The notes beneath the pieces are model-generated. The model ran no database searches, had not been told where the DNA came from, and saw only the letters and a program-made list of their open reading frames with translations. From Microbotryum violaceum (Eukaryota): a DNA stretch of 64,000 nucleotides. A program made the position numbers and the translations under genes. Below are positions 12,173 through 46,071 of the stretch, one piece after another (position 1 is the stretch's first letter; the number at the start of each line of letters is the position of its first letter). The stretch is from contig CDLV01000005.1 in the NCBI GenBank assembly GCA_001244265.2, positions 2,480,001 through 2,544,000 on the forward strand. The letters are read 5' to 3'.

Positions 12173-13601
12173 CCAGTGGGAACCCGTTAAATTAACGGGA
12201 GGATGAAATTCAAAAATAAGCAGGATAATCGAACAGTGTACATGATATCAGTGCAGAGGTTAAGAAAACACAGTACGAAATACAGCAAAGAAACAAAATC
12301 CATTCATCTTACAGTCATTGCCGAAACAGCCTGCATGTCGCTTGTTGCCGGACTCGGCTTCAAACACTCGTGCAATGAGATCCGGACGGTTGCATGCTTT
12401 AACGGCCCCAGTGCAGCCTTGGTTTCCGGTGAGTCGGGGTCGTACGTCATCGTGATGAGCAGCGGAGGCTTTCCATGTTTGACAACGCACGCCATCGCAT
12501 CTGGTATCGCTGCGTGATGTCGCGATTTGGTTCGGGGTCAAGCCGTTGATGCCTTGGGTCGTGGTGAGGCGTAGGTTCTCTTGATGTAACCGGATGTGTT
12601 GAGTCAATCGGTCTTGACTTGGGAGTATATCCGTAATTCACGAACTCCAGGAAGGGACGTTGGGTGCAATGCGGGATTGAGAAGTGCTCGTCGCATTTGG
12701 CAAGTAGTGCGCAAAGAATTGTGAACGCGAGACTCGCCACCTCGACCCCTTTACTTGACCTTCGTCCTAGGTGTTCAAAAGTTCAATGTCAGTCTGAGGG
12801 TGCGTCTCAACAGAGAGGTATATGAGAAAGAGCCGAAGACGCGTACGTTCGCCATCACCATCCTCTTCGTCCCCTTCCTCGCCGTCTTCATCCTCATCGT
12901 CGCGGTCTTCGTCCTCCTGTTCGTCTTCGTCATCCAGACCGAGACCGGCAAGTACCTCGCGCGAATGGACACCATTGTCGATCTACTCTCAGTTTCTGGA
13001 GATTGGCGGCCTGGCTTGGTGGAACCCGCAAAGAGGAATGTTGGGGTGGAAGCCATCTTCCCCTGCAGGAAAAAGTAGTGGGTAACGGAGAGGCATCGCG
13101 GACGGATGGAGCGAGCTAACGATTTGGTACTTGGGCCGACCATCGGGACATCGATCACCGTGCACCTGGAGAATAAGGTCTTGCGGTCCACGATCTCCCG
13201 TGTTGGTGTCGGAATCGCAGATAAGCATCGCCATTTCCGTGCTCGACGTAGGAGGGTTGTGGGTGCGTCGGTCCCGGCCTGGCGGGAGGCAGAGGCGCAG
13301 GATCCACTCTTTGGCCGTATCCCAACCTGCGCGAGGTTTGGCCGATGCGAACTCCCTCACAAAGTGATTCTTAGTACGCAACATGGACTCGAGCTTGGTC
13401 AAAGTAGATCGTTGCATGTGACTGTCTGCGCCGTCGGGTTCAAGTCGAGTGTCGGTGGCCTCGGCCGGGTTGATCAGCCATGTTTGAGCAAAGGCTGGGC
13501 ATTGATTCACGGCAGGGATTAGGGCGCCGAGTTGATGGTAGAGGCGGCCGAACACACGAAACACGGGAGGTCCTAGAGTGCCCACTTGGGTTTGGTCCCA
13601 G
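12173..13601 (-). mobile_element. Helitron fragment (central RepHel/Helitron_like_N region, internally deleted) with 3' terminus
   Basis: GPPVFRVFGRLYHQLGAL, LRYPLLFPAGEDGFH, HIRLHQENLR, DAMACVVKHGKPPLLITMT, RPDLIARVFE. On the minus strand a hairpin CCCGTTAA-T-TTAACGGG (12199-12183) is followed by CTGG|T (12176-12172), the CTRR|T end pattern. Confidence 0.85.
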
Positions 13602-14158
13602 CCTGGCGACCTTGGGACCGGGGCATAGTAGCGAAGGTTTGTTCCTGAATGAGTGTCAGTAAAATTGGATGAGAGTGGGAGGGAGAAAGGAAAGGTTCGA
13701 GGGAGTGGCGCAGGATTATTTACGTGGTTTGATTTGTTGTTCAGCCCCTAATGCCGCTGGTCGAATGCCATACGGGCAAATTGGTTGTTCAGCCCCTAAT
13801 GGCGCTGGTCGACTGCCGGAATGACACTCCACCGCCGGCGCACCGCATCACGTGACAAACGCCAGCCCTCGCCTCGCACGTCAGGCAGAGCTCTGCTGTA
13901 GAAGCAATATCATGCAAAGCCACGCGCTTGCGGTTCATTAAATGCAATATGAGTGGAAGCATTGTTTTATGTGAGCGAAAAAAAGAAGGAAAATACTGGG
14001 AGCGCTGTAGCCTCGTTGGAACGGCGCGGAAAATACAAAAGTCACCACAGCGCTTGTACATGACTTCTGATCGGAACATGGACACCACAGGCAGGTGCGG
14101 CAGACACAACAGTATGCTGGTACATCCACCACAGGCGGCCCGGAGGGCCGCAACCCAG
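13602..14158 (+). mobile_element. Possible non-autonomous Helitron-like piece (plus strand)
   Basis: Hairpin GCGGCCC-GGA-GGGCCGC (14135-14151) followed by CCAG|T (14155-14159); internal ~35-bp imperfect direct repeat (GTTGTTCAGCCCCTAATG.CGCTGGTCGA) at ~13735 and ~13784. Confidence 0.4.
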
Positions 14159-14585
14159 TTAAAAACAGCGATTTTAGGTACATTCCTTAACTCACACTTT
14201 TTTTTTAATAGTTAGGGTAATAGTTAGGGTAATAGGGTAATAATGTGCGAGAAAGAGCAATTCAAAAGTCCATGTCGTAGATAGAGGGGAACCGAGAGAG
14301 TATAGAATGCGATCAGAACTAAAATAGGTCGTAGCGGTAGGAGTAGTATAATGCGAGCGCGTATGAGCAGTTGTCGAAGAAGTGAATCCAGAATGGGAAA
14401 GGGTAAGACTGAGAGTGTGTCGTGAGACGTTTCCAAAGATTAGGCGGAACGGAAGTGATTGCAAAGGGTAGAACAGCGTAAGGGCGATAATGGTGACACA
14501 ACAAATTGGCTTTGCGAATGGGTTGTGCGGCAAGGCGTGCGGCGTCGGAAGAGCGATATTAGGGGAGGGGGAATGGGAGCGTCGA

Positions 14586-15446
14586 TCAGAAAGTCGACCA
14601 GAGGGAATCGAAGCCTCGTGGGCCGAAGCTCGTTTCGCTCGCGACCAGCATTCCTGCCTTAGGGACGCGAACATCGTCTTCTTCTTCTTCTTCTTCTTCG
14701 ATCAACTCCTCATCCGTGATGTCGCCGTCGTCGTCCTCGATGGCGCTGGTGACCGTAGGGAACGGCTGATGGCTCAACAGTGCAGCGCAGCGAAGACTGG
14801 CCGCAGGAGAGACACCTCGCGACTTGTTGTGCGAGCCTGGATTTGAGCTTAGTACAGAAAATGAGTCGTACGAGGTCGGAGGTGTCGAAACGAAGGAAGG
14901 AGGCGTCGACGAGGCCGAGCCCGAGGCCGAACCATGTCGACTCCTTGACAGTCCCGAAGAGGAATCATGCCGCGAGCGAGACCGCGACTTGCTCCTACTC
15001 GAGGTCGAGGTCGGTTGAGCCCATTCGGGCACGTTCGTCGAGTTCGGCGGTGACTGGCTCATGGGCCCCTTAGGCGAGCCCATGAAGGACCGAGTCGAAC
15101 TCGTGGGGGGCGGGGTGAGCAAAGCTTGCGGTACCGAGGCGGGGGCGTTGAAGTAGCACGAGTCGCAGACTCGGCATGACATGGGCTTGCCAAGAAAGGG
15201 TCGCCCATTGGGAGGCGAAGAGGTTGGGGTCGAAGACGAGTTCGAGCTTTCGGACGAGGCCGCGACGGAGAAAGCAGAGGAGTTGCTAGGGTTCGTCGAT
15301 TTCGACGACGACGATGCAGCAAAGGCGAGTGAAGACAGGTCGACATAGGATGATCGCGGAGTCGACTTGGGGGTCGCCCTTGGAGTCGGCGGAGTCGAGA
15401 TATCGTGTTCACCTGGGCTCATGGTAGGGGGCCACAGTGACACCAT
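14586..15446 (-). CDS. Hypothetical Ser/Pro-rich protein (CxxCxxC motif, acidic C-terminus); start uncertain
   Basis: Open frame of ~285 aa with coding-like composition, CRVCDSC and a poly-Glu stretch; no family recognised. Confidence 0.55.
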   Translation of the reverse strand: MVSLWPPTMSPGEHDISTPPTPRATPKSTPRSSYVDLSSLAFAASSSSKSTNPSNSSAFSVAASSESSNSSSTPTSSPPNGRPFLGKPMSCRVCDSCYFNAPASVPQALLTPPPTSSTRSFMGSPKGPMSQSPPNSTNVPEWAQPTSTSSRSKSRSRSRHDSSSGLSRSRHGSASGSASSTPPSFVSTPPTSYDSFSVLSSNPGSHNKSRGVSPAASLRCAALLSHQPFPTVTSAIEDDDGDITDEELIEEEEEEEDDVRVPKAGMLVASETSFGPRGFDSLWSTF

Positions 15447-17041
15447 ACGCGACGAGTGTGACGAGCAATACACTTCCCCGCATTTCCTGTATAGCCGACG
15501 AAGATAAGGTCAGTACAAGGTGAAACCATGACAAGTGAACTCCTATGCGTTTGTGAGGTCACGAGAGTGATCGAGCCCGTCTCCTCTCAGCTCGGTCTCG
15601 CCATCTCCTCTCGTGCACCCATGCGATCGGCTAACGCACCGACAATGATGTCGCCGGTTGATCAGGTCGAAACGCAACGAGCAGTCACTTGCTGCACAAA
15701 TCAATGCCTCCTCGTCGGGCTGTGAACGGTTTGGAATCGGAGCATTTGATGGAGGTCAGCAAGCGGAGCGAATTTGCAAAGGGGGGAAGGCGAGATCGCG
15801 GCCTGAGTTGCCAGCCAATCGGTGATTGACGGTATGTGTCGGCCCAAGCGGCGTGCGCACCGCATGCCACTGGCACGCGAGTTGCTCGCAGTCGCGCGCC
15901 ACTCCGCCCCCACCAGGCGCTTGCGCAAGCGCGGATCGGTCTCTCGCGCTCGGCGCACACATATCGCCCGGGCGGAGATGCTGGGCACCAGAGTATCCAG
16001 AACGGTGTGGAACGAAGTGACGCACCCTCCATGCCGAGCGTGGCAATGCTACACCAGCAGCAACGCTCGAGTCCCCAGACTTGTAGTGGTTTACATCTGA
16101 AGCCCAGGGGAGTACACCGAGCCATGACTGGGGCGAGATTGCCTTAATGGACGTCTGCGACAGTTCGGCGGCCAGAGCATGTGGTGATACGGGCGGTGAG
16201 ACAGGCATGGCCGACACGGGGGTTTGCGAGCCGTTGCGTCGGAGCGCCGCGGGTCGGTACAGTGGCTGGCATCGCGTATTGCGCGGTGCAAAGGAGAGTT
16301 GGCACGAAGTGTCGACCTTGGGTGTGGTCGTATGCAACGTGCTGCGTTGGTTGCGCTGGGTGTATGCCGTCGTCGACATGGCGCACGGACGATCGCTTGT
16401 CGTCGGCCCAACACCGATTCGATGGGACACCCGGACGGTGGATGAGTAATGTAGGTCGACACTGGGTGAGAGAGGTACGTAGTTCACAACGGAGGTGTCG
16501 AACAGATACCGGTGAGAGGGGTGAAGAGACTAGTGTGTACGAGTAGTGATGGCAGGCGAGGCGGAACTGTTCAGCAAGCCATGGCTGTATGCTTCCTGGG
16601 GCTTAAGAGGATGATAGCAAAAGGAGAGCCTGGTGCTAGCAGCACAGGGGAAGGCACTCGGCAGGACCCCCGAAAGCCCAGCCATAGGCGGCCCTCCAAA
16701 AACGGCCCTTTTCCGAGGCAAAATGCCCAAAACTTTTCCCGGATTCTGACTGAAAATGTCTAAATATGAACGCCGCCTAGTGTTGAATAATTTCTCAAAA
16801 CTACCCTACAAGCTGTACAATGCTCATAAATTTTTCTGCGCGTAACCGCGCGCACCAAGCACCCAGGGCCCAGAGCCCAGAGGCCCAGAGCGCCGCCAGC
16901 GCGACCGCCAACGGGCCTTTTTCAAAATGAGATGGACTCGAATAGGATCTCATCTTTGTCTATTCATCTAAATGACACTATAATCTACATCTACCTAAAA
17001 GAATGTACGACAAAATACGGTTCTCTGCCGCGCGCTGAATC

Positions 17042-17375
17042 CTAATACCTGGAAATCCCTGAAAAAGTCGGAGACTTAAGCACACTGGCTAGGCCAGTAG
17101 GACTCATTGACCCTGAATTATCCACCAAATCCCCCTTGGGTGATTCACAGAGACACAAGGCGAGATTTGGACTCCTGAATTGACGCCCGGAGCTCTTCGA
17201 CTGCCATTTCGGTGATCGGTTCCAAAGAATCCGAGGAGAAATGGTGCCGGCGAACCCTGTGAATCTATCGACCAACTAGGAAAAGAAAGATATATCTCGG
17301 CGAGAGAGCTTCCAGATCGAAAGAAAGAAGAGGAGACGAAGCTCGACAAGTCGGCGTTCCGAGCGAGAGACGATC
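17042..17375 (-). mobile_element. Degenerate 3'-end remnant of the LINE family found at 48318-53130
   Basis: Aligns by eye with 48366-48665 (taatacct.gaaatc..gaaaagtcggag; gtaggactcattgaccctgaa; tttcggtgatcggt.ccaaa; agagcttccagatcga; cgacaagtcg.cgttccgag). Confidence 0.8.
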
Positions 17376-17419
17376 AAAAAACGATAAACGATCGCAAATG
17401 CATGTGTGGTCCCGTGAAG

Positions 17420-17616
17420 GCCAGCCCCTTCACAACTGGACTACACACCAAGTTACCTTGCGCCTTAAATGGCTCCCTTCTGATTCCGCATCCATTGAAA
17501 TTGTTTGCTTTTTTGACTGTGTAGTCCAGCTGTGAGGGGCTGGCAAAAAAAAACTAACAATCTCAATCGATGCTGATTGAAGCCAGAAGGGAGCCGTTCA
17601 CGGTGCAAGGTAACTT
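17420..17616. repeat. Two interleaved imperfect inverted-repeat pairs (A-B-A'-B')
   Basis: A 17420-17447 is the reverse complement of A' 17518-17544; B 17450-17514 is the reverse complement of B' 17545-17616, with mismatches. Confidence 0.8.
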
Positions 17617-19534
17617 TGGTCCTTGCAGACAGACGTCGATAGACGTCAAGTTATGCCCTACGGGATAAGTTTTGTGTAGTTCGGAGTTCGGTGGTCGGCC
17701 AAGTCTCAGACCAATACCTAAGCACCGACCGATTGGTTTTAGGGGCTTGCGTCGTGTGGCACCACCTGATTAGACCCTATGGGCTACCGGACTGCGTGCA
17801 CTAGGTAGGTAAGGTGCCTATGTAATAATTCGAAGCAGGCAACACGATTCCGAGAGCTCGCTCCGACTTGCGACTCGCTAGCAACGCCAGCCTATGCGCT
17901 GCTCGGGAAGCTCGCCGAGCGCCGAGTTCTCGTCAGGTCTCGATCGTGTGCAGGGCGTAGTTAGAGCAGGCCCTTTTTTGGTGGCTTGGCTTCATACCTA
18001 CCTCGCAAAGCATGGATTTACTAATCGAGGTATCTATTCAGGACCCTCGACTGTACCTAGGTAGTGCTAAGTACCTACTGCGCTGGCTGTTCACTCGACA
18101 TTCGTCGTTTGAGTATAGGGCCCCACTCTCACAGATCTCACGATCTCACGCGCGGAAGCGCACCGCAACCAAGCTGGGGGCTCGAAGTCCATCCCGCAGA
18201 CTCGGTGATCTTTTCCTGCTTTGAAAAGCTCACGCACACAACCTCTTCAAGTTAATGGCCGGCGGTTGTTAGCTGCCCAGATATGCACCAGCAGCTGGGC
18301 AGGTACCTGCCCTTATTTTCACGGCCAGAAGGCACCTGCACATGCCTGCTGGTCGATGAGTAATCGTTCCCGTGCTCGCCCTGCAGCTGTGGCCGAATCG
18401 ACCGTCGTCAGGCGTCAGGCGTTAGGCCGCTCCCAGGTCGCTTCTTGTCGGGTTGCTTTGGCTACCACCGTCCGCCATGAGCGCTCGAGCACATGCCAAT
18501 GTGTAGTAAATAACGAGCTTGGTCCTCACCTAATTAGAGCCTCACAGTAAATTACGCAGCTCCAGTTAGTCGAACTAACCCTTCATGCGGTGTGAGCTTA
18601 CTACTACCCGCAGGCGCCACAGGTCCAGCTCGGGAACCCGCTCGGAAGCAGCTTTGTAGTCATAATGACGTGAGCCCGATACGGCCTCCCGACCCTGATT
18701 CGGGGTCTCTGGATCATGCCATCAGGGAGTGCGTATAGCGAGCCTTAGAGCTGTGCCTCCCTCGCATGCCCGGGCGAACTTTCAAACCAGCGGAGCGGCG
18801 CCCCTATCAGACGGCTAAACCTCGCGCTCTGGCACGCGCACTGGTAGCCAACCGCCGCCGCCGGCCTAGTTGAATTGAGTTCGATCCGCTAGGTAATATG
18901 ACATCATCGTGCTGACCCCACTCCACGATACGTTGCAAAGGTTGAGCATAGACGCGGAGGCACTATAAAATTGATGTTTCATACGCCGTTGTCGCTCGGA
19001 AGTTGTTGAACACAGGCTGCAAAGGTACGTTCAGGACTGACGACCCCATCGTTGGAGCTGGTGGTGATTATTTGGACGTCTTTGCGATATGATGTGCTGC
19101 ACCCCCGTCTTGTATTCGCATTACCGCCCACAGCCGGTGTGCTGACAGCGCCAGCAGCGCCAGCAGCGCCAGCTGAGCCCGGAGCATGTAGGTGGTCTTA
19201 GGTGGTCATAGCGGGGAAACCAAGGTTTACCCAAAGGGCACCGGCCGTGGGGGTTGGAAGCTCCCCTCAGCCTGGCACGCCGCACCTGCGCTACACATCA
19301 AGGCGTGTCTCTGGACTCTGAACCAGAGTCACACTCCCTTACCTTTCAATTCAAAGAGTCGATCAACTGCTGCAAGAACTTCGGGTGCAGCCGTCTGGTG
19401 AGGGGGGGCTTCTTTCGCATTCCACCGCCGGGCGATCGTGATCGCATTAGTCGGTTACACGAGCGATCCAACGTTGCAGTTCCGACCATCAGTATAGCAT
19501 CTACGGGGATTAGCTGGTCCTATCTTGGAAAAGG

Positions 19535-22500
19535 AGTGAGTTATGGACTCGATGCTGCTGACAGTAGTGGAATGCAAGCACGTTTGCCCTAAGGCTAATG
19601 ATGCTGACTACGCTCGACGACCCCCTTTGCTACCACTGGCTCACTCGCCCCTCACGCCCCGCCACCCCCCGAAAATTACCATGCCCGCCTTCGAAACGTG
19701 GGCCACATCATCATCAGTGCGCATCAAACGAGCACCGAGGCGACATGGGTCAATCAATCCAGGCATCGCCGCGTTTGTGCTGCGCCTGTCGAACGAGCAA
19801 TCGACCACGCCGCAAGACTGGCCCGAAATGCTGCTACCGATCGTTCAAGCCGGCTGGACATGGCCCCGAACGGACCTGCAGCACTGGATCGTACCGCTCA
19901 ACCGATTTGACCAGGCTCTTGAGAAGCTCGTCGCCGACTATCGCCTCGACTCGATGGAGCACCCACAGCTCAAGCCGTTCGACGGCCCGACCAAGAAGAT
20001 TGTGCTCGCCATCCTCGCCTTTATCAAGGTGTTGCTAGAGAACTCGACCAATCGCAAGATCTTTTCGAGCTTTGATGTGAGTCAATCGCACCACAGTTTT
20101 GGCGCTGCCTCTCGACGCGCCCCTGTCGAGCTAACGTCTTCCTCGTCTTTTCCTTCCTCGTCCCGCAGCGCCTCAATGACCTGCTGCACACGACCGACCT
20201 TGAAGTCTTGCTTGCCACACTGAGACTCGCTTTGAGACCCGCCCAGCAATTCTCGAGCACGAACACGGGCATGACCTCGTTCGCCATCTCTGAGAAGCGG
20301 CTGCTCAACCTCGCCCAGGGGTGGGGCACGCGCGAGCACGCCCTGGAGATGGTCGATCTAGCAGCAGACGACGTCGAGATCCCACCCGAACTAGACGAGG
20401 TCGAGTGGCAGTTCTACAAGAAGGCCTTGGCGACCGCGCCGCTTCCATCCAATCTGTCGTCTTCGACGCCAGCGACCGGGGTCTTGCGCAAGGACGTCGA
20501 CGACAAGGGCAAGGGCAAGGAGTCTAAATCGAGCGATACGATGGATGTCGAGGATGATCGTCGATCTGGCACTTCTGCGGGTCCGTCTTTGAACGTTCAC
20601 TCGACCCCTGCCCCCAAGCGCCAGTCTTCCTTTCATAACTCGCTCCTGTCAACGCCCCTGCCCTCGATGCCGGGCCAGGGCCCTTCTTCTTCGAACGCGC
20701 CAGCTCTCCAAGAAGGTCTAACTACGATTCATCTCGGCAATGTGAGCTTGTCCACTAAGTCCGCAGTCGAACTGTTCGTCGAGGCGTGCGAAAAGTACGG
20801 CGTCCCCGATTCAAGCCGGCTCGAACTGCTGCAAAAAATTCGCATCGCCCAATCGATGCGATCGACGACCGAGCGGAGGACGTTGTTGCTCATTCGCTTG
20901 CTCGCGATGACGATCTTTGCGCACACCACGACCGAAGCTCATATGCAGACTCGCCTGTTCCTCTACGAACCCGACCTCATCGCACACCTAGCCGAACTTG
21001 TGCACCCGGACCGAGCGGTCCCGATCGAGATCCAGGCTGCCTCGTTCTACGCGCTCGAGGCCCTGGCCCACTTCAAGACCAAGCTCGGCGAAGTTGCCAG
21101 CGCGCTCAATGCCAGTGTCAGCCACGGTATATTGTTGCACGTGTTCCGACGCACCGTGTCCGACTTTGACAGCGACAATGCCGTGACGACACACGAGTTC
21201 GTCGATTCGCTCTTCACGTTGCTCGTCTTTTTCCAGACGAACGCTTTTGTAGGCAACCAAATCGTCGCGGCGGGGATTGTACCGATGCTCGTGGACCTCA
21301 TCAAGAACACGCGTAGAGATCGCGTTTGGATCGTCACCAAGGCCGTGTTGTTCCTCGACAGTCTCATGTACGGCTACCAGAGCGCCTTCACGCTCTTTAT
21401 CTCCAGCGGCGGTTTGCCCATCTTCGTGGACCGCATCAAGCAAGAGATCGATCGATGTCTTGAAGAGCATTGCGGCAAGACGGTCGCCGAGGAGGATGCC
21501 CTCCCTATTGGAATGCTCTCTTTCGACGAAGCGTCACTGCTCAAGGGTTTGCTGCGATCTATTCAGCGCCTGATGCAGACTTCGGGCATGACCGAGGGTT
21601 TGCGCAACTTAATCGACACTTCTTTGCTGGCTGCGGTCAAGACGATCCTGCAAAACCGGCCCATTTTCGGAGCTCAGGTCTTCGCACTCGCGATCAACAT
21701 CACCGCGACATTCGTGCACAATGAGCCGACATGTCTCGCGACCATCCAGGAGGCCAAGGTTCCAGAAGCTTTATACGACGCGATTGGGGAGTCAATCCCG
21801 GCCTCGATCGATGTTCTGCAGGCCATCCCCAACGCCGTCGGCGCCTTGTGCCTCAACGCAGCAGGTCTGGCGCTGTTCAACGAGCGCCCCATTATCGCCA
21901 AGTACTTCAGCATCTTCACGAGCGAGCGCCATGTTCGAGCATTGACGGAAAGGGACAACGGGAACTTGCTCGGCACCTCAATTGACGAGCTGATCCGTCA
22001 TCATCCTACGCTCAAGGACAAGGTGTTTGAGTCGATCATGCAGTCGCTCAAGGACATTCGCGACAACGCGCGAGCCTACAAGCCCGACTCACCTGATGGC
22101 TATCTCTTGCAAGTCGTGCGCGAGGAAGCCGCCGCTTCGACTTCGACTTTGGCTGCAGAAGGTGCGGCGTTGACATCTTCGGCCGCAGCCCCGCCAGTCA
22201 CCGCCATCGCCACCACCTCGACAACGGGCGACGTCGAGATGCAAGACGCTACTGCGGCCAAACCAACCCCGCCACCGTCCGAGGGCAAGGACAATGCTCA
22301 CTTGCAAGCGATTGATGCGTTTGGGAGGGTAAGTCACAGCAGTGGACACTCGTCGAGATGGGGATCGAGTACGAACTTGAAGCTAACCCTTAATCGCGAT
22401 GACGATGCTTGCAGTTCCTCGAAGGCTTATTCCAGCACATGGCGCACGGCAAAGACTTTGCCCAACACGAGCCATACGACCTCCTGCTCGATCTCCTCGA

Positions 22501-25500
22501 CCTACCGAGCATGCCAAGCTACGCCCCTGGTACAGGCGCTTTCAGTTCCATCTCTGCCATTTTCCGCATGTTGTCCGAGTTCAAGGGCGTCGAAGCTGTC
22601 TCGGCCATCCTCAAGAGAACCAAGGCGTGCCTTGAACAGACCGAGTGGCTCACGTCCACATATTCCGGGGATAGCAAGCTCAGCTCGATGATCTCGCCGA
22701 GTGAGTTCGAGCCGGTTTCATCTTGTCATTTGATGCACGTAACTGACTCGAGTTCGATGTGAGCTTTTGTTCAACAGCCGACACCACGATTGACGCCGAG
22801 AATGAGCGATTCCGTCAGCTCTGCACCTTGCTCTCGCATATCACGCTGCTCTCAGATACGTACAGCTCGCTCTCGTACACGCATGGACGGCTCGCTACGT
22901 CGATGCTCTCCGTCTTGACCACACCGGAGAATGCCATCGTGCTTAAGCAGCTCTCGGTCGTCCTCGCGGCGACCCAGCGCGAAGGGTGGTATTTGCAGGG
23001 TGTGCTGCCTGAGGCGACGGACCCAGATCATGCCGTTCGCCAGACATTACACAAGGCGCCGATCGTGACGCCTCCAGTCGGGCAGTTGGGCACCGAACAG
23101 GCATCGCAAGCAGTACTGGCAACGCATACGTCGACCGCGTTACCGTCCAACGCACCCAACGTGCGCGCTCTCAAGGAAGTCATTCTCGCGGTGCCTCAAA
23201 GCGTGCAGGTGACCCTTCAGTGCATTATCAAGCTGCTTGTTCATCGCAGAAGTAACGATACAGCCCATCGAGCCGCCTCCAAGCACGTCGCCACGACCAT
23301 CGCGCACAATTTGACCGACCTATTGCAATGGCCCGGCTCGAGTGCCTTGTCGAGCGACATCGCCTACGCGACCAACCTGTTCCGTGATGTGACCGCATTT
23401 CTCTTCGATCGTAAGTATGAAGGCATCAGCGCATTGCTAGATTACTCTACGTGGGAACTGACTCGAGTTGCCGCGCCGATATTTTTTTGCAGCTGATCGC
23501 CCCGTCCAGTCGGGCTTGCAAACGCTCTTGGCTGCGACCTTCGTCAAAGTAGGCGGACTCGACGCCTATCTTGCCCTGTTCGACAAGCTCCAGGACGTCG
23601 TCTCCGAAGACGCCAGCGGCGGGTTTGGAGATTTGCTCACAACGTTTGGCGCGCTCAAGATCGCTCTCGAGACGTTGAACCGCCTCACCTCGCACCGCAT
23701 GATCCTCGAGTCGTCGCAAACGGCCCAACTGCTCACCCGAGAACGCGATCGATCCAGCCCTGACTACTTCGACCCCCACGCATTCCTCGTGCACTTGCGT
23801 GCGACCATCCTGCCTCACATCCTGCAGGTGTGGAACAAGCCGTGGCTTCGTCGGTGCCCACCGAATGTCGTTCGTAGCATCGTCGGTACGCTCGTGGGTA
23901 TTCTTAAGGCTCAGGGCGAAACGGCCGTTGATCCTGCCAGCACCGGTCAGACCCCACTTGGCCGTGTCAACGACACCGAGGATCGGGATCGAGCAAGCGC
24001 TGCACTGGATCGGCTCAGCGTGCTCGGTGGCTTGCTTAATCGCGACCGGGCCGCCGCCGCTGCACAACAAGGTCCGCTCGCCGTAGATCAGACCCGAGTC
24101 GCGCAGCTCGTCGACATGGGGTTCCCTCGATCGGCGGTTGAGCTCGCTCTGCAACGGTGTCGCAACAATGTCGGGTTCGCGACAGAGTACCTCCTTCAGC
24201 ACCCTGATCTTGTCGGTGCCGCTCGAGCTCGCGAAGCAGCCGAACCTCAGGCAGCCGCCAACGAAGCCGAAGCTCCCGCCAACCCCCCTGAGAATCAGGC
24301 CCAAGCCCAAGACGGTGACGCCGCAGGCCCCGATGCGCCGGCACCGGAAGCGGGCAACCCACCTGCTCCGGGGGCCGCTAATGGCGACGTCGAGCTCGAA
24401 ATTGACATCGTCGTTGGCGAAGATGCGTCTATGGACGAGATCGTCGCTGCCGTCGAGCAAGAACTTGCGACCACCCCTGTCGTCCCTCCCCCGACGACCG
24501 AGATGATTGAGACGCGTTCGCGTGAGCAGATCGACGAAGAGAACAAGGCGACTCAGGCTCAACTCGACGAGATGCGGAATCAGTTGAAGCCCGAGTTTTT
24601 GGCGAAGGCGCTGGTGCTCGCCGAGGACTTTGGAGATCTCGTCTTCGATATAAAGAGCGCGCTCACGCTCCTCGAGATTGGGCCTATCAGCCTAAAGCCA
24701 TTGCTCGAAGGCCTCGAAGATGTCACTTTCGCCGCTGAGGACAACGACGTGCGAAAGGCGCAGGACAACGCCGCTGCGGTACGGTGGCGCGTCATTGCTC
24801 TCGTACTTGTCGATCAGTCGCTTCGCCAGATCATTGACCCGAACGTCGACGCCATTGTTGCGGCCTCGTCGAGCTTCCAGCGCGAGTACGTGCTTCGCTC
24901 CGCGGATAAGGACTCGCGTCCCAAGTGGCTCGCTTCCGTCATGCTAGTCGCCGATTCCGTCTTCTCGATCGGGGAGGCCGTTACTCGAACAACGGTGGCT
25001 CCCCCTGGCGAGGAGTCTTCCGTTCCGACGCTCACGACACTGGGATCGAACTGGGCCACAGAACGGAGCGGATGGCTTGACTTGGCGATGGATGTGCTCA
25101 AGAAGGGCATCTCAGATCGCGAAACGTTCGTGTCGACGGTGCGCCTGCTGATGGTTCTCACTCGCGATCATGGCCATGCCGCTCGTTTCGTCGCCGAGCA
25201 GGGTCTCGAGCCCTTGTTGGCCGCGTTCGCCGTCGAGAGACCCGAGACAGCTGCTTGTCGCGCCTACGTGACAATCATCCTGAGGCACGTCGTCGAGGAC
25301 GCATCGATCCTCCTGCCGATCATGGAGTCCGAGATCAATGCGTGGTTCTCTTCCTCGCGATCCAAGAACGTCGAGCTGGCCATCTTTTTGCGCGGCTTGA
25401 CGACGATTGCGTTCCGCAATGTGACAACCTTCATCGAAGCGGTCAAGACGACGTGCAAGCTCATACCAAGAGTCGAAAGCTCACACGGCTACCTGATTGG

Positions 25501-35719: not shown

Positions 35720-36691
35720 GGACTTGCGGATGGGGCTTATCATTGGAATTGGAACCAGCTACTCACTGAACTTGAAGAGCTCAGGATTTCGGATAGTCGG
35801 TACGATGCAGATTGCAATCGAGTCACAGACAAACAAGCAAAATAGTAAAGAGTACAGACGAACAAAAAATCGTCGACAGCATCAAAGACGAATCTGTGCA
35901 AAAATCAACGCATTCAGAACAGAAAGGCACTGAGACCAGTCAGCCATCAAAGTCTTCGTCAAGTGGATGATACGTTGTGATGCAAGAGAGGTGCGTTGGA
36001 TATGATAGGATCCGTTGGCCGTTCTTAAAAGCGGTTCATTCCACATCCCCTCAAGTACCTCGAAAGGCCCGGGGTCGGTTTTAGCATGGAACATGTTTTG
36101 TCGTCATATCCTTCTGTGTAGTTGTCGAAAATGAAGGCGAAGGTGGAGTAAATGCGAGAAAGCGGGGGAGGCTTACCTATAACAGAACTAGGGTCCTTTG
36201 TTAACCCAGGCATTTCCAAGATGGGGTAGGGTTCCTGAATGAGGCGCAAGGATAGAATGGTCGTGAAGAGTCAGTCATCGACATTCCAGAATGTGCATCC
36301 TCGCTATGCCATCTCCTTCTCCGTGGTTGGATAATGTATGTGGTCCAATTTCGCCTCAGTGTTGCTCTTTGGTTTATTGGCTAAAATAAGTGAGCGCGTG
36401 TCGAATCGGCATGGTCCTCTGGTTGAGGGAGGACCAACTACGACTGGGGCGACAATAAAGTACTCATCTCGCGCGAAGAGTGGACCACACACACCAACCG
36501 ACGAGAGAAGAAAGGAGGAAAAACATAAAGGGGAAAGGAGGCCGAAAACTCACTGAGATATGAAGAGACAACAATGCTCGGGTTAACGGGACACAAACCG
36601 AGTCGATACGAACACAACAGAAGAGATGAAGAAGTCGCTGGTTGAATTGCGGGAAGGGATGCAGAGGGGCGGACGAAGTCAAACGGCGATG

Positions 36692-38268
36692 TTACAGTCG
36701 AACGGCGTGGTGAATGACTTGCGGGTCCAGAAGTTCCTTCTGGGATTGAACCAGCTTGAGCTCGACCATCCTCAGCCTTCGCACACGCTCTTCGGCACTT
36801 TCCCCTTCGCGGGGGATGATGGCATCGGGGTAATGCTTAGCCAACCTCAGTGCGTTGGCACGCGTTCGAGCGAGGACACCTTGCAGGGAAGCGATCGCCA
36901 ATTCGACAGTGTAGGCGAGGGGAGACACGGCGTGTGGGGGGTGAGAGGCATTGGGGAAGCGACCCAAGACGAGGGAAGAGAAGACGTCGCCGACACCTTC
37001 GTAGTGTTCGGCCAACTCGGGGAAGGCGATGCCGAATGAAATGGATTCGATCGGGCCGTTAGCCGACGAAGTTGGTGTCATGGTCGAACCGCAGCAGAGC
37101 AAGAGCCGATCGTTGGGCGCTGCCGATTCGACAGTCACGTCGAGCTTGGCTAGCTCGTCGCGAGGCAACGACACGGCCGAGATGACGATGTTAGGGATGC
37201 GATACCGTTCGTGGAAGGTCCGCAGTGCCAAACGCAACGAAGCGGCGTCGAGAATCTTGACATCGGTGAGGAGCTCGGCTTCAAAGTAGTTGGGCGTTGC
37301 GCACGTCGCTTTGGGCATCAGCGACTTGTAGATGGGGATGACGGCTTCCGAGACGTAGATGCGACCGTCGTCACCCATGACGGGGTCGAGGACGTAGATG
37401 AGGTTGGGGTTGATAGACCGCAATCGGTCCACGGTGCGAGCGACAACGAGCAGCGCCTCGGCACCGGGTACGTAGCCGGTCAACAGATGTGACTGGCGAA
37501 GAAGCCCGTTGGCCTGGGGGTTGGCGTGGTGCCATCGTCAGCAATCTTGTGCTGCCTCTGCGAGATTGACAGGGATGGGCGTAGGCGACTCAAGAAACTC
37601 ACATCGAGTGCGCTCATGACATCCTCGAGATGAGCGGCGTCAAACTTGGATCCGCCCCATCTGCCGTAACCTATGAATTTGAGAACAGTCACAAGTCAGT
37701 CTTGACATCTCCCGATACTTGGAAAAACAAGGCAGGGAAATTACGCGAACCCTGAGTGAGCGATACGACAGAGGAAAACGACGAGGGCACACGGAGGCGG
37801 CATTCATGAGAAAGCGCGGAGAGGCGACCATGCAGTATATGCAAAAGTATGCAAGCAAGAGAAAATAAAAGAGGGAGAAGAGCGTTAGTTGGCTGAGCAA
37901 TGGTTCAATGGCGAGAGCACTGGAGCGCCAGGCGAGGAAAAGTCGAGGGCGACGTGGCCCTCTGCACGGCGATGGCAACCCAAACTTACCGTGTGGTTAG
38001 AGAATTCGACCGTGTTGGCCGCATCTACCTCCCAGCCCAAGAGTTGCAGGGGAAAGCTAGCCGATTTGTTGCCTGAGCAAAGGCAGGGCGCGCACACGAG
38101 GCAAAAAAAGGGGTCAGCGCCGACCGCTGGCTGCGAAGCGGCCAAAACGAAGCGGCGACCATGGAGCATGAACTCACCAACATAGCCTGCCACGACGTGG
38201 GACTGTATCGACAAAACTCGTTTATCGGGCACAACCAACGACGGCGTGCTGGCGGAGGAAGACGCCAT
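36692..38268 (-). CDS. BUD16: Pyridoxal kinase; exons 38268-38178, 38072-37990, 37751 (1 nt), 37670-~37603, ~37513-36692
   Basis: [79 protein letters not shown]. Confidence 0.93.
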
Positions 38269-38706
38269 CGCGGCGCCGCGGAAGGTGGAAGGCGTCGTAG
38301 CGCACCTCTCCGTGCGTGGTGAGCGTAGTGGTGTGCGGGAGGAAAAGAGCGCGCGCGCAGCCGCGCAGCCCCCACCCGCGCGTTACTCAAGCCGAGCCAA
38401 AGGCCGGAAGGGAAAAGAGGTCCAAGCGCAAGCCTCGGCAGCGCGTCGCTCAAAACACTCGCTGGGCCTCACGCTGGGCCAAAGTCAAAGCTGGCACGCA
38501 GGGAGCTGGGCCGTCGTGGCTTGGCGAGCCTTCGCAGCCAAGGCGCGTCGGAAATGGTGGCTCTTGCGGGCAGGTGCTGGCTGGGCTCTGACTTGTACTC
38601 TCTTCGTCATCACCCCCCTCAGCACCGTACCCGGTACTCGCCTCATTAATAATAAGCCCTCTTACTCTCGCCTCCCAATTCCACTCCCCGTATCAACTCC
38701 CTCCGT

Positions 38707-40910
38707 GATGGCCACTGCTTCCTCCTCCTCTTCCTCCTCGTCGCCGTTGCTGCCCGCTTCCGAGGCGTTGGCGCACCTCAAAACCTACGCGCAGCCCGAT
38801 GGCCTCTCGCTGCGTTCCTTGATGGACTCGCAAGAGCATGGAGGCCTGACCTACAACGATTTCCTCGTCCTGCCCGGCCACATCGACTTCCCTTCCAATG
38901 CGGTCAGCCTCGAGAGTCGTATCACGAGGAAGACGGTGCTCAAGACGCCCTTCTTCTCGTCGCCCATGGACACCGTCACCGAGACCGATATGGCCATCGC
39001 TATGGCTGTGAGTTTCCATCAAAATACACTTGACTTGGCTCCTCGACAAGATCATGGTGACTCACCTTGCTATTTACTTCTACACCGCCCTATTGGCTCT
39101 CCCAATGACGCCACTTTTTCCACGGCACTTTCGTCCCGACTCCTCTCGGCTCTCCGCGTACCGCAACGCCACAGTTGCTCGGCGGAGTGGGTGTCATCCA
39201 CCACAACCTTCCTCCTCAGATGCAGGCCGAGATGGTTCGCGCCGTCAAGAAGTGTGTCAAAAGTCCCCCACCCCCTCGGCGCGTCTGACTGAAAAGCTTT
39301 CATGAATTCAAGAACTGACCTTTCGCGTTCGCGTGCGTCAAGGTTCGAGAACGGCTTCATCACCGACCCCGTCGCGCTCTCGCCCAACAACACCGTCGCT
39401 GACGTCTGGGACATCAAGGACCGATTCGGATTCTGCGGCATCCCCATCACCGGTGAGTGCATATCCCATCGAGACCGTCCTGGGTCCTATCGCCCTTCCT
39501 TCCCGGCGCCACGTCAGGTCGAGCAGCCGCCCTAAAAATGATGTACAACCAACTCATTTCCTTCGTTCTGCCGAAATCGAGTTTGATCGCTCATTTACAA
39601 CCCATGTGGAAACATTGAATACGCCTTGATCGGCTCTACTGATTCTTCACCGTCGATGCTCATCGACAACACACAATACGCCTACCGCGCTCCGTTTCCT
39701 CATTGTTGACGGAGCACGCACTGACACAACAAAGGCAACGCGTCTGCATCCCTCGTTTGCAGAGACTGGAAAGCTCAACAGCAAGCTTGTCGGCATCGTC
39801 ACTGCTCGCGACATCCAGTTCCGACCCAACTCGGCAAAGCTGTCGACGGTCATGACCACTGGTGATGAGCTCGTCGTCGCCAAGTCCGGCGTCACCCTCG
39901 AGCAAGCCAACACCATCTTGCGTGACTCTAAGAAGGGCAAGTTGCCCATCGTCGACACCGAGGGCCGACTCGTCGCTCTGCTCGCGCGATCCGACCTACT
40001 CAAAAACAAGGACTACCCTTTGGCGTCCAAGAAGCCCGAGTCCAAGCAGCTCATTTGCGCCGCCGCCATCGGCACCCGTGGCCCCGACCGCGAGCGCCTG
40101 CGCTTGCTTGTCGAGGCCGGGTTGGACATCGTCGTGCTCGACTCGTCGCAGGGCAACTCGTCGTACCAAATCGAGATGATCCGATGGATCAAGGGCGAAT
40201 TCCCCGACCTCGAGGTCGTGGCCGGCAACGTAGTCACACGTGAACAGGCTGCGGCCCTCATCGACGCCGGTGCCGATGGTTTGCGAGTTGGCATGGGCTC
40301 CGGATCCATCTGCATCACGCAAGAAGTGACGGCCGTCGGTCGACCCCAAGGAACAGCTGTTTTCGCCGTCGCCGAGTTCGCGCGCAAGTTTGGCGTCCCC
40401 GTCATCGCCGATGGAGGTATCAGCAACGTAGGCCACATCGCCAAGGCGCTCGCACTCGGTGCCTCGGCCGTCATGATGGGCGGTCTTTTGGCCGGTACGA
40501 CCGAGTCACCCGGAGAGTTCTTTTATAATGAGGGCAAGCGGTTGAAGAAGTACCGCGGTATGGGCTCGATCGACGCCATGGACGCCGGAACGGTCAAGGA
40601 CAAGCGAGCCCAGGCGACCGCCGACATCGACAACGCCGCGACGTCGCGGTACTTCTCCGAAGGGGACGTCGTCCGCGTCGCGCAAGGAGTCGCCGGTGCC
40701 GTGCAAGACAAGGGCTCGCTGCGCAAGTTCATCCCTTACCTGCACGCCGGATTGCAGCACTCGTTGCAAGACATGGGTACGCGATCGATCGCCGAGATGC
40801 AAGATCGTGCTTATTCGGGCGAGTTGAGGTTCGAGCTGCGCACTGCGAGTGCCCAGGTCGAGGGTGGGGTTCATGGTCTGCACTCGTTCGAGAAGCGCCT
40901 CTTCTCATAG
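38707..40910 (+). CDS. IMD4: Inosine-5'-monophosphate dehydrogenase (3 introns)
   Basis: [30 protein letters not shown], catalytic loop [45 protein letters not shown]. Confidence 0.97.
39534..39646 (+). ncRNA. snR54: Intronic box C/D snoRNA, snR54/SNORD59-like (18S Am974-equivalent guide)
   Basis: Lies in IMPDH intron 3. Box C ATGATGT (39538-39544); guide CCTTCGTTCT (39560-39569) complementary to 18S AGAACGAAGG; D' CCGA (39571-39574); box D CTGA (39639-39642). Yeast snR54 is hosted in the IMD4 intron. Confidence 0.8.
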
Positions 40911-42142
40911 CGTGCTGCCTCGGTCAGGAAATGAGGTGCCGGAGCAGATTCGATTAGTGCTAGGTTCATCTGCTCCTCTGCACGTGTCATCCCTTATTTT
41001 CTTCTTTTCTTAAGTCTGTAATTGCTATTCTCATATTTTTTTACAAGGAATGTACAGACTTTGCCTCACTCCCCTATCTTGTCCGAGCACGGCGAGCAGG
41101 TCCCCTGCATCCAGGTACGCCAAGTTCCACTCCGTCCACGGTGTCACAACACCTTGGCCCTGGCTCCGAACCGAATGAGGGTAGCGGCGACAAATATTCG
41201 ACCTACTCACCTTTGTATCAACTCCACCGGATCCATCGCACATCCAGCCACCTCAAAACCCACCGGAATGGGTGCTGTTGATTATTCAATGTTCCATGAC
41301 GCTTTCGACGACCCCACCCTGCCTAGCGGCTTCGTGCTGTGCGAGAAGAGCGACCTCAATTCGCCGTCGACTTGACTGAAATCCCCATGGCCGAGTTGGT
41401 AAGTCGCGCCCAACTTGAAGAAAGTGATAATGACACTGGTTGTGGAAAGCTGATAGGCTATCGACGACCTGAACAGCCTACGTGTATAGCCAACGAGTAT
41501 GCAACGTTGGAGACACCCTCGCGACCGCGCTCCGCCCCTCAGTCTGCACGACAAACCGGACGCACCGCCTCAATCCAATCATCAGCGTCTCATAATCACC
41601 TGAGACACCGACAACAGAATCCTCGACAAAGCTCCTGCCCACAATACCTGCGCTCGCATCCGCGAGTCAAGTTGTGCGCGTCAGCAACTCGTCGTCAAGC
41701 CCCCGATATCCTGTCAGAGGCGCATGCACTATCTCCGGTCCATGATGATGAACAGTCAACGGGGCACTGACAGGGCGCCCCCAAGCACCTAGAATGAGGC
41801 CACAAGTAAACCCTCCAAGGAAGAGGCCAGCACCCCGCCGCTTCCGACTCTGCCTCACCGCCTAGGCCAGCTTACCTCGTCTTCTTCCTTTCGATACTGC
41901 TGCCAGTTGGGTCTGACCTTCCCGCATCTAAGCCCCTAAATACCCCTAGGGCATTCAACACCCAACGCTCACAAACAAACAGACGCAACTCCACGTGCAA
42001 CATTGAAGTAATCAATTAAACGTGAGCCAACATATGTACAGATTCCATTTGGACGATAACTAAGGAGAAGACGGGTCTAGTAGACAAGAATAGTATCAAC
42101 TTGACCGACGTGGTTTTGAGAGAGGCTTGATACAGGCGAAAG

Positions 42143-44591
42143 TCAGTTCTGATCCACCAAGATGTCGTGATCGGCATCAAATCGTGTCAGATCCTTTATC
42201 GGGCCAGCCGGTGGGTCAGAGATGAAAGCTTTCTCGAAAATCGAACTTGCAAGCGTGATGGCCCGGGGAGTGTGGCTTGCGCTCGTGAAGGGCGTGCGGT
42301 GGTCCAGCCACAACGGGTACTCGATGCTGTTTGCGGGAGAGGGCGCTGCAGAGACGCTCGTGACGGAGGAGGCGATTGTCCCCGGGGATGAAAAAACTTC
42401 CTCCACGTCATCTGGGTTTGCGATCGACGAAGCTGACGAAATTGAGGACGACAACTCGAACGGGGAAGGGTCGTAGGATAGAGGGCTCGAGGCGAGGAAA
42501 GAGGGAGAAAGTGGAGCGCTCCGCAAAGAAAAGTCCCCGTCGAAGAGGTTCCCTCCGACTGAGGACGGGACGGAACCAAATTCAAAGGCCGAAAAAGCGG
42601 CAGGGGCGGAGGAGGGTACCATCTGCGCGTGATACATGTCTAGGAAGGGGGAAGCAGAGATTCCCCATTCCCAGCCGGCGTTCACGTCGGGCGAGCGATT
42701 CATCGTTGAGCTCCAGAGCGGGTTGGTATGGTCGCACATCGTGTCCAATTCGAGTGAGTTATTGAACCTGGTTGGGTAGTCGAGGGAGGCGAGCAGATTT
42801 TCAATACTGGAGTCGAGCGATTCGACCGTTGAAGGCGCCGCAGAAAGCCAGCTCGCTTCGCTGCACTGGCCAGTTGCCCACTGAGAGTCTGGCGTGGGCC
42901 CACTGGAGCCCCACTCGTTCAAGGTTTCTAAAGAGGGCAGGGAAGAAGAAGTGCAGCTCAGGAGGTCGGAGTCGATGGGTGTCGAGGAGGTGCAGTCGGA
43001 TGACTCAAAAGTCGTGGGTTCCTGTTGGGTTGGCTCTACATTTCGTCGGGGTCTCTTTGCCGGACGATACGTGTAGTCTGCAGCACAATATTTCCTCGAT
43101 TAGTCGGGGCCCTTCCAAGTCCCAGATGGGGTTCCCGATGCTGCGACAAATGGCTTACCAGGGTACGCGAGGGCATGCGCCGCCTTGGCTTCGGCCGCGA
43201 GTTGTTCGTACTTAAGCCGGCTCTCCGACGTTTCGTCCCTCCACATGTAAGAGATGAGTCTTGCTGCAGGCCGACAGTTAAGGTCAGCTACCGCCCTCAG
43301 ACATATTTTCTCTCATCCTGTGCAACGGCAACTCACAAACTTCACATTGTGATGTCTTGACAAATCGGGGATCGGCTCGCAGCCTCTGGATCTGAGCAGA
43401 ACGGTATAGGATCCAAGGGTTCGGTGGGCGAGGGGGCTGATTGCGCCCATTCTTGCCACCCCGTTTCTTCAAAGGTTGCATTAGAAGTGCAATCTCAGTC
43501 GATTCGGGTGCAGCACGGGCATTCGATGATTCAGACACCCAATCATGGTTGATTGTGTTCGTCTCCACTTCGGTGTGGGGAGGGGCCGGCGAAGCGCGCG
43601 GTGACACGTGTGCTTCCTCGAGTTGATATGGTTTTGAGCTCTCCAACAACAGATTGATTTTGTCTAATCCGTTCCGCTCGAGCTTGGCGAAGAGCGAAGA
43701 TGGAGTGTTTTTACCGCTAGACAGAGCGTTTCTTTTGGACCTCGATCTTCTCTTCGCGGGGCTGGAACGTCGCAGTCGCTCCAGCGATGAGGAGTCGACA
43801 ATGGGTGGCGGGAGTAATCCAAGCATGTCTTTTTTGCTGGGAGTGATCGATACGGGGTTAATGAGGGCGTCAAGGCTGATCGTGGCAAGGGGAGGTGATG
43901 CCATTGGCGAATTGGCGAACGGTGAAAGCGATGGCGAAAAGCGCGGCGGTGTACTGGACAGCATCGGTTCGAGCCACCAAAAATCGCCGACAATGGGATG
44001 TGAAGGAGAAGAGGTCAAACCTGATGTTCGAGATGGATACGATTCTCGGTCCACTTGGGCAGTTTCAGGCGCACTGCCACTGGATGAAGACAGCGAGCTT
44101 GAGTCCCGATTTGGAGTCTGCGACGCCGAGACCCGACGACTAGCATCCGCAGGGAGTCGGAACACCTCCTCTTGCTGACAACTGGTCAGATGCGGTGCGT
44201 CGACTTGCTTCAATGGCGAATCGTCTTCTTGCCTGGTGTCTTTCGAGTCAAGTTTGTTGTGTTGCGGTCGGCGAGTGGTGACGGAGGGCGGGCGCTCGCT
44301 GAAATCGTGGCCGGTCGGTCGGCTCTGGGTCGTCGCGGTCCCGCTGCCAGCCCCTCGCCGTCTGAAAAGGGCAACGATGGGTAAGCATTCTCAGAAGCGG
44401 GTCGTGCACATCAAAAGACAGTCGTGCTGGTAGACTCAAACGCTACTAACAAAGAGTGCGGCCCTTGTGAAGTGGTGCTTCCGACTGACCTTCTCGTGTA
44501 TGGTCCATCGGCGAGTTGCTCAGCGCGAGCGGCTCGAGCGCGGATGGAAGCTGGAGCACGCACCGAGGATAGGGGATCGATTCGAGGCATA
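42143..44591 (-). CDS. MATA/SOX-type HMG-box transcription factor; 5' exon structure uncertain
   Basis: PPRPPNPWILYRS..KTSQCEV|SRLISYMWRDETSESRLKYEQLAAEAKAAHALAYP|DYTYRPAKRPRR, assembled over two introns, with a Ser-rich C-terminus (42143-42922). Confidence 0.85.
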
Positions 44592-44850
44592 TCGGATTTG
44601 AGATTGAGCAGAGGGGTATCCACTGTCGGCTACACGCGGATGAGTGGAAGGAGGGAACACAGTTGTCGTTGTCGGTGATGGACTCAAGCTCACCAGGCTG
44701 CGCGGTGCCGACTCCAAAGATTGGTTTTACGGATGCGGACTGAACGTGCAGGCGGCTACGGGAACATCATTGTCCCCTTTGTTGGTTCAAGATGGCCGGG
44801 CTGTCTTCGCTATCGGGCTGCTAGAAGCGCGCGCGCCACCCAAGCAGCCG

Positions 44851-44879
44851 AGAATGAGAATGAGAATGAGAATGAGAAT
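44851..44879 (+). repeat. (AGAATG)n hexamer microsatellite
   Basis: agaatgagaatgagaatgagaatgagaat. Confidence 0.9.
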
Positions 44880-45532
44880 TTGAACTCCAGCTAGTCTACA
44901 AAGAGACGACCCTTATCAGGCGCTGGACCACATTAACTGGGCTATCGCCTCTACTGAGTCTTCTCAGATATCTATTGCCGCGGCGATCCACGGCGCTCGT
45001 GTGGGCTAGCTCAGGCACACCCCGCAAGTGATACACAGCTATTTGCTCCCCGGCTCACGAGTCACCAAGTAAGTGGCTGTATTTGGCAGTATTTGGCAAT
45101 GTGTGTCAAGCACGCGATGCCGCGTTGCCGCGTTGCCGATCCAGACGATGATGCCAAGGTGCCGGCCTTCGGGTTCCGGTCTCGGGGGCGCTACGGCGCC
45201 GACCTTCCTGCGAGAAGTGGGACCGGTTAGCTTTTTATTCTACTTTTTATTTTATGTGAAAACCTTTGGAGAGGTCGGCGACCAAGCCTCATAGCAAAAA
45301 AGGGGGATATTTTGAGGATGGACTTGGGACGAGGTTGGGACGGCCGTGGGATGGTCGAGAGATGGTTCCATCCTGGGATGACCGTGCACGATCGCGGGGC
45401 ACTAATACCAGAGCTGGGCGCCTTATTAACTCTGCGACCATCCCGGGACGGTCCGGACCGTCCGGCGACCACGCGGGACCCGCGCCGATCCTGGGATGGT
45501 CCAAGAACTGACGGCGGTCTGGGCGGTCTGGG

Positions 45533-46071
45533 CACGGGAGGTCCTAGAGTGCCCACTTGGGTTTGGTCCCAGTGGGCAGCGAGCGAAGTAAAGGACAACG
45601 CGTTATTGCAAGACCGGGCATTCTCGCGGAATGTTTTAGCGTCTGTGTAGGTGCATCGCACAATTCAGCATGTGGGTCTACTGCAGACGAATGTTGTTGG
45701 ACGGAGCAACTGACCGCTATCCGAGCCTTCAAGAAGCTGCCGATACTCGAGATTGGGCTGGGGAAGGGGAGGTAGCCGCACCTTGCCCTGCGAGCAGCAC
45801 GCGCTGAAGTGTCTGGTCGACTTGGACCTTTCGCACTCCCAGTGCCGAGCCTTGCAGTGGGTGCACACGGCCGTCTGCGGGCCGGGGTCGTCGCGGATCG
45901 AAACGTGGGCTTGAGGGGTTTGAGCGCGATTCGAGCCCGGCGCACTCGCCTTTGCGGTGCTGGGACGGCGCGGGGATAGACCTGGGTCCCGGGATGGTTC
46001 CGAGATGGTGAAGTTGTGGGATCGATTAGTAAACGATTCAATTGTCACTTGTGCATACTCGTGATACTTGA
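45533..46071 (-). mobile_element. Helitron fragment (N-terminal Zn-finger part of RepHel)
   Basis: CTHCKARHWECERS..FSACCSQGKVRLPPLP, then FRENARSCNNALSFTSLAAHWDQTQVGTLGPPV; possible 5' A|TC at 46072/46071-46070. Confidence 0.85.

What the first reader, a model, noticed from the sequence alone, without database searches (positions are those of the whole stretch)
12173..46071. One Helitron ORF split into two colinear halves with an exact 40-bp overlap, bracketing 31.9 kb of host genes
Seen in sequence: CACGGGAGGTCCTAGAGTGCCCACTTGGGTTTGGTCCCAG is identical at 13562-13601 and 45533-45572. Helitron coding continues only to the left of the first copy (..GPPV-FRVFGRLYH.. towards the Rep motif and the hairpin-CTGG 3' end at 12173). 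It continues only to the right of the second copy (Zn finger..NNALSFTSLAAHWDQ, possible 5' TC at 46071). Both halves are on the minus strand in the right order, so deleting the interval between the repeats would rejoin the protein. The interval holds TOM1, the AGGF1-like gene, BUD16, IMPDH and the HMG gene. Three inferences are possible: a large segment was translocated or integrated as a circle into a Helitron, a ~34-kb cargo-carrying Helitron, or two independent derivatives broken at a hotspot. The repeat itself contains CTAG, the Helitron terminal motif.
Basis: partly seen in the sequence, partly recalled or inferred. Interest (0 to 1): 0.75.

Follow-up and report, generated by a model that had tools for sequence, protein, structure and literature searches.

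The report
Helitron scrap patched into neighbouring transposon
In an anther-smut fungus, a small jumping-gene copy lost its middle, and a matching 420-base scrap sits as a repair patch inside another dead transposon 32 kb away; the genes between them never moved, so this is ordinary repeat debris rather than a giant gene-carrying element.

Summary
The 40-bp repeat is real but not special: it is exact at 35 places in this genome and within 3 mismatches at 95. These are not two halves of one element. The left piece (12173-~14240) is a whole non-autonomous Helitron with its own 5' and 3' ends and a private internal deletion at 13601/13602. The right piece (45533-45957) is an internal fragment inserted into a remnant of a TIR transposon. 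That remnant is uninterrupted in 9 of 9 paralogs aligned, and the joints show 3- and 5-bp microhomologies plus a 9-bp duplication. The proposed '5' TC at 46071' lies inside the remnant. Locus tags in Microbotryum intermedium, a species nearly free of Helitrons, run BDF1 3148, IMPDH 3153, ArfGAP 3156, matching the window's gene count, so no block moved. Contigs from three studies reach across the lower insert joint. Still open is whether the patch came from the left copy, whose deletion removed the matching stretch (about 0.5), or from another copy (about 0.4). The family is too mosaic to decide. Cargo Helitron or translocation: about 0.03.

The parts
12173..14240 (-). Whole non-autonomous Helitron copy (about 2.07 kb) between BDF1 and a FYVE-like gene
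12173..12199 (-). 3' end: hairpin (12183-12199) then CTGG, followed by T
   Evidence: T follows in 37 of 40 rows
12307..12537 (-). Frameshifted Rep (Helitron_like_N) remnant
   Evidence: E 7.6e-4, under cut-off; long relative L066 E 1.4e-52
13562..13601 (-). 40-mer R, left copy; a common family haplotype
13601..13602 (-). Private deletion joint: segment A joined to R, about 500-690 bp (segments B and C) lost; 7-bp inverted repeat GGTCCCA/TGGGACC beside it
13602..14240 (-). Family 5' segment A, ending in tandem TTACCCTAACTA-type units
14586..44390 (.). Host genes in ancestral order (FYVE-like, TOM1, FHA gene, pyridoxal-kinase-like, IMPDH, HMG-like); not cargo
45289..45532 (.). Terminal part of the host repeat (TIR element of about 2.17 kb), its TIR end at 45289; 9-bp tandem duplication at 45516-45533
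45533..45957 (-). Inserted internal Helitron fragment C+R (zinc-finger-like coding part): net 420 bp, microhomology CCG at 45955-45957 and CCGTG at 45533-45537
45955..46077 (.). Continuation of the host TIR repeat; holds the 'TC at 46071'
46075..46398 (.). A third, unrelated repeat at which the host remnant ends

Best explanation
Shown: the left element is a complete, internally deleted member of a Helitron family with more than 150 copies. The right piece is a 420-bp internal fragment of that family, set into a dead TIR transposon with no loss of host bases. The genes between keep their ancestral order (this anatomy: about 0.93). Inferred: a break in the TIR remnant was mended by microhomology-guided end joining or template switching. 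The end annealed at CCG in a Helitron, took in 420 bases and returned at CCGTG, leaving a 9-bp local duplication. The donor was most likely the neighbouring left copy, either in one three-joint repair episode that also removed B+C from it, or by copying before a later deletion. The 40-bp 'overlap' is the stretch present in both products. Nothing here needs transposition, and no function is expected.
For: The empty site is contiguous in 9 of 9 host-repeat paralogs aligned (9 of the 11 paralogous loci fetched) and appears as a one-letter joint in all 4 runs (table 5c; read as paralogs). Microhomologies at both joints. The left copy has both termini, and its 5'-anchor-to-R distance is 607 against 1091-1316 in 33 of 37. 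For the left copy as donor: 32 kb apart, same strand, and the insert starts inside the deleted interval. Left A and right C share the same nearest copy, L072, which happens in 16% of intact copies and 5% of random pairs (n=32). The first 60 bp of left D point to the copy nearest the insert's end (10% vs 4%, n=39).
Against: Not a clean move: B is lost and R is in both places. Distance profiles of right C and the first 200 bp of left D disagree (rho -0.37, lower than all 39 intact copies; 7% of random pairs are as low). Of 8 copies with the exact 40-mer and D within 10% of the left copy, 0 have the long form of C that the insert has; 7 of 25 exact-40-mer copies do. The two favourable ranks are the best of 12 tried, and a 150-bp end-of-A test showed nothing. 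Each breakpoint has a local explanation (see the first rival).
Confidence: 0.5

Rival explanations
1. Two unrelated events. The left copy deleted B+C at a recurrent fold-back site; separately, a patch copied from any other family member was captured in the TIR remnant. The near-match of breakpoints is chance helped by sequence.
For: The end of A breaks again in another copy, L075, which continues with fold-back letters. The partner 7-mer TGGGACC occurs once in a 2690-bp intact copy, at the start of R; CCGTG occurs 4 times, one being the end of R. Other private deletions exist (L076; L067), and a three-copy subfamily also breaks inside R. 7 same-strand 40-mer pairs within 35 kb. C-versus-D mismatch.
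Against: Needs an orphan fragment near a deleted copy, on the same strand and nested in the deletion. No second orphan fragment was seen among the 49 other copies examined, which were picked for D likeness or an exact 40-mer. Shared nearest copy L072.
Confidence: 0.42
2. One reading: a 34-kb cargo-carrying Helitron, or a gene block brought from elsewhere and integrated at the 40-mer.
For: Exact direct repeat, same strand, colinear coding. A two-copy capture of this type is described for FoHeli1 (PMC13342296, passages).
Against: No 5' terminus at the far end; a 5' terminus at about 14240 inside the supposed cargo. The block's edges pair with the outside: A with D, and the two parts of the TIR remnant with each other. 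M. intermedium tags 3148/3153/3156 on one contig fit the window's gene count. BDF1 and IMPDH also share a contig length in M. silenes-dioicae (8 tags apart) and Leucosporidium (21 accessions apart).
Confidence: 0.03
3. Assembly error at the repeat.
For: Multicopy sequence; the left deletion joint was not checked against reads.
Against: Single contigs of X1, X9 and X6 (three studies) run from 44923 to 45561/45562, 29-30 letters past the lower joint (just under the tool's 31-letter bar for bridging). X1 and X9 cross the upper joint by 12 and 25 letters. X11 is too shallow there.
Confidence: 0.02

Closest known systems
Non-autonomous canonical Helitrons (HLE1) of Microbotryum
   Same: 3' hairpin + CTRR, T after the end, Rep domain in long members (about 5.5-5.9 kb between anchors), many 2.1-2.7-kb deletion derivatives. 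Helitrons are 10% of TE sequence in M. lychnidis-dioicae (PMC4469406, passages).
   Different: The 5' end is TTACC- or TTACTACC-type, often in tandem units, not TC (HLE1 definition from PMC11417382, passages).
[quoted passage not shown]
   Same: Short microhomologies at the joints, a local tandem duplication, an apparently blunt deletion joint beside an inverted repeat.
   Different: The insert is 420 bp and comes from a distant template, far longer than the short local inserts of that model; the left joint misses the paper's strict criterion by 1-2 bases; that work is in Drosophila.
Gene capture between two FoHeli1 copies in Fusarium oxysporum (PMC13342296, passages)
   Same: Two same-family pieces flank tens of kb holding coding sequence.
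   Different: There the upstream copy lacks only its 3' hairpin and can start the element; here the upstream piece has no terminus, and the downstream copy is complete.
Translocation through circular intermediates (yeast EC1118 region B, cattle Cs29; recalled, from no call)
   Same: The three joints can be written as a circular permutation of the 32-kb segment.
   Different: The segment is at its ancestral place and single in the data seen; moving 420 bp explains the same joints.

Membership tests
Helitron HLE1 | 3' hairpin and CTRR | tested here: met
   window 12173-12199
Helitron HLE1 | 5' TC | tested here: not met
   5' ends read TTACCC.. or TTACTACC..
Helitron HLE1 | Insertion between A and T | tested here: inconclusive
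   T follows the 3' end in 37 of 40 rows; the 5' base is blurred by tandem units
Helitron HLE1 | Rep domain | tested here: met
   PF14214 E 1.4e-52 in family member L066; remnant under cut-off in the window
Helitron HLE1 | Pif1 helicase in autonomous members; placement against HLE2 on a RepHel tree | not tested
   the fetched loci end before the helicase region
Cargo-carrying giant Helitron | 5' terminus at the far end of the cargo | tested here: not met
   46071 lies inside a TIR repeat
Cargo-carrying giant Helitron | Cargo absent from this site in relatives | tested here: not met
   collinear locus tags for 3 genes in M. intermedium; tags, not DNA alignment
Translocation by circular intermediate | Segment at a new locus or in extra copy | tested here: not met
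   same synteny evidence; flat depth over 42500-44700 in 4 runs
Translocation by circular intermediate | Circular permutation of segment order | tested here: inconclusive
   the joints fit an in-place permutation and equally a 420-bp move
Microhomology-guided captured insertion | Reconstructable empty site | tested here: met
   9 of 9 paralogs aligned
Microhomology-guided captured insertion | Microhomology at both joints, no element termini | tested here: met
   CCG and CCGTG
Microhomology-guided captured insertion | Identified donor | tested here: inconclusive
SD-MMEJ (left deletion) | Joint contained in one arm of a repeat of 4 bp or more | tested here: not met
   the 7-bp arm starts one base past the joint

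The most novel reading that the evidence does not exclude
All three joints arose in one event: the 32-kb block of housekeeping genes was cut out, closed or held as one piece, and put back in place in permuted order at a staggered break inside the Helitron (40-base overlap), perhaps started by Rep nicks. This would be a gene-order-silent circle excision and re-entry that synteny scans cannot see.
Probability: 0.08. Interest if true: 0.55.

Novelty: new member of a known kind. Interest (0 to 1): 0.17.

Why it matters
As read here it matters little. It is a clean example of how repair shuffles transposon pieces in a fungus, and a warning that exact direct repeats and colinear halves from a high-copy family can mimic a giant cargo element. 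If the three joints prove to be one event, it would record a piece lost from one transposon being captured 32 kb away in a natural population, a step that can be tested with existing Microbotryum assemblies. The unusual tandem 5' ends of this family may interest Helitron specialists more than the finding itself.

Tried and rejected
The whole genome was not available as a file, so the family catalogue is partial: 49 other copies read (29 picked by likeness to D, 20 by exact 40-mer), and anchor lists cover the first 100 of 163 and 244 matches. Lineage tests by distance correlation had almost no power (likelihood ratios 0.45-1.35; five near-duplicate copies dropped), because the family is mosaic: the left copy itself switches type about 60-70 bp into D. 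Contigs could be laid on one site only; the left site was not tested, and X11 gave no cover of the joints. No orthologous empty site was seen in the 4 runs. The host repeat was first taken for a Gypsy LTR because L054 has integrase- and chromodomain-like frames next to it (read by eye); rejected when its far end proved an inverted repeat. CTAG inside the 40-mer as a terminator: rejected, since the commonest 3-mismatch variant keeps CTAG and continues into D like the rest, and no copy read ends there. Paper searches (listings only, apart from the five papers cited) showed no report of this locus; the library lacks most subscription papers, and no supplements were opened.

Full report
Setting. 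The window is G000:C3:2480001-2544000, in a 33.2-Mb, 20-contig assembly. Its BDF1 and IMPDH exons are 99-100% identical to proteins labelled Microbotryum lychnidis-dioicae. Helitrons are abundant in that species (PMC4469406, passages) and nearly absent from M. intermedium (0.04% of bases; bioRxiv 10.1101/2022.08.03.502670, passages).

The repeat. 13562-13601 and 45533-45572 are identical. The same 40-mer is exact at 35 places and within 3 mismatches at 95, with 0 in the control. Among the 76 sites on contigs C1-C9, 7 same-strand pairs lie within 35 kb, this one included. Exact identity therefore does not tie the two pieces together.

Family anatomy. On the minus strand the family runs A (window 14240-13602), B (absent from the window), C (45954-45573), R (the 40-mer), D (13561-12173). 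End anchors match 163 and 244 places. Anchor spacings cluster at 2.1-2.7 kb and 5.5-5.9 kb (first 100 matches of each list only). Long members carry a full Helitron_like_N domain (L066, E 1.4e-52).

Left piece. It has the 3' hairpin and CTGG at 12173 and also the family's 5' end near 14240. Segment A stands upstream in 19 of 29 other copies. It is thus a whole non-autonomous element. A is joined straight to R: the anchor-to-R distance is 607, against 1091-1316 in 33 of 37, and only the window spans this joint among 40 scored of 99 candidates. The joint is blunt or has one shared base. A 7-bp inverted repeat sits beside it, and its second arm occurs once in an intact copy, at the start of R. 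Another copy, L075, breaks at the same end of A and continues with fold-back letters. This suggests fold-back-guided deletion, though the strict SD-MMEJ criterion (PMC2943611, section read) is missed by 1-2 bases.

Right piece. Helitron likeness covers 45533-45957 only. Both flanks belong to one other repeat, a TIR element of about 2.17 kb, whose two parts are contiguous in 9 of 9 paralogs aligned (two of the 11 paralogous loci matched only the distal part and were left out). The empty site reads CAGCA-CCG-TG-CCCAG. The insert enters at CCG and leaves at CCGTG, net 420 bp, with no host bases lost and a 9-bp tandem duplication beside the lower joint. The 'TC at 46071' is inside this repeat, which ends at a third repeat at 46075-46398. 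Contigs of X1, X9 and X6, from three studies, run 29-30 letters past the lower joint; X1 and X9 cross the upper joint by 12 and 25 letters; X11 is uninformative. X9 and X6 differ from the window at 5-6 sites in the 2.1-2.4 kb of unique DNA next to it, so the insert is shared by distinct lineages. These overlaps fall just short of the tool's bar for bridging.

Synteny. BDF1 and IMPDH are also linked in M. silenes-dioicae (8 tags apart) and Leucosporidium creatinivorum (21 accessions apart). Three of nine genes were checked, by tag and not by DNA. With the paired borders, this removes the cargo and translocation readings.

Donor. The insert begins inside the interval the left copy lost and ends 40 bp past it, 32 kb away on the same strand, which favours a link. 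Lineage evidence is mixed. For: left A and right C share their nearest copy (16% of intact copies, 5% of random pairs), and the first 60 bp of D agree with the end of C (10% vs 4%); these are the best 2 of 12 tests. Against: the C versus D(1-200) profile is more discordant than in any of 39 intact copies, and 0 of 8 copies with the exact 40-mer and left-like D have the long C of the insert, against 7 of 25 overall. The left copy switches type about 60-70 bp into D, which weakens both objections. My odds are a judgement: left copy as donor 0.5, another copy 0.42.

Mechanism. Shown: three joints, their microhomologies, the intact gene order. Inferred: break repair by microhomology-guided joining or template switching. 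A single three-break event is formally the same as an in-place circular permutation of the 32-kb block, so that bolder reading is not excluded, but moving or copying 420 bp is simpler (0.08).

Verdict. Real sequence, ordinary cause: an internally deleted Helitron plus a captured fragment. New member of a known kind; interest 0.17.

Noticed in passing
window 14209-14243; L056, L058, L074, L064, L009: The family's 5' end is a TTACCCTAACTAG-type unit in variable tandem number (one to more than eight), not TC; a second type starts TTACTACCTCT. The unit resembles both the element's own 3' end and a telomere repeat (the telomere likeness is recalled).
   Followed up: partly
L002-L030, L055-L074: The Helitron family is strongly mosaic: neighbouring segments of one copy have different nearest relatives about as often as random pairs, pointing to frequent recombination or template switching among copies.
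   Followed up: partly
L075 (G000:C2:1972400-1973300): A copy broken at the same end of segment A, continued by letters that fold back on the local sequence.
   Followed up: partly
L076 (G000:C2:1919300-1920700); L007, L012, L019: Other internal deletions: a private C-to-D deletion, and a three-copy subfamily whose deletion ends inside the 40-mer.
   Followed up: partly
window 45289-46077; L047, L077: Unclassified TIR element of about 2.17 kb, termini TCATAGCAAAAAA, with many short GGGAC/GGTCC subterminal repeats; no clear target duplication in the one copy read at both ends.
   Followed up: partly
window 17119-17373 and 48467-48671: A second pair of direct repeats, 78-86% alike and 31.3 kb apart, probably LINE remnants; a reverse transcriptase frame lies at 49498-51153.
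   Followed up: no
window 17426-17616 and 53290-53641: Nested inverted repeats that look like MITEs.
   Followed up: no
L009, L010, L020, L023, L024: Family copies often sit next to or head-to-head with other copies or their ends.
   Followed up: no
contigs C1 and C2: The two largest contigs hold many of the family's copies, as described for non-recombining regions in this genus.
   Followed up: no
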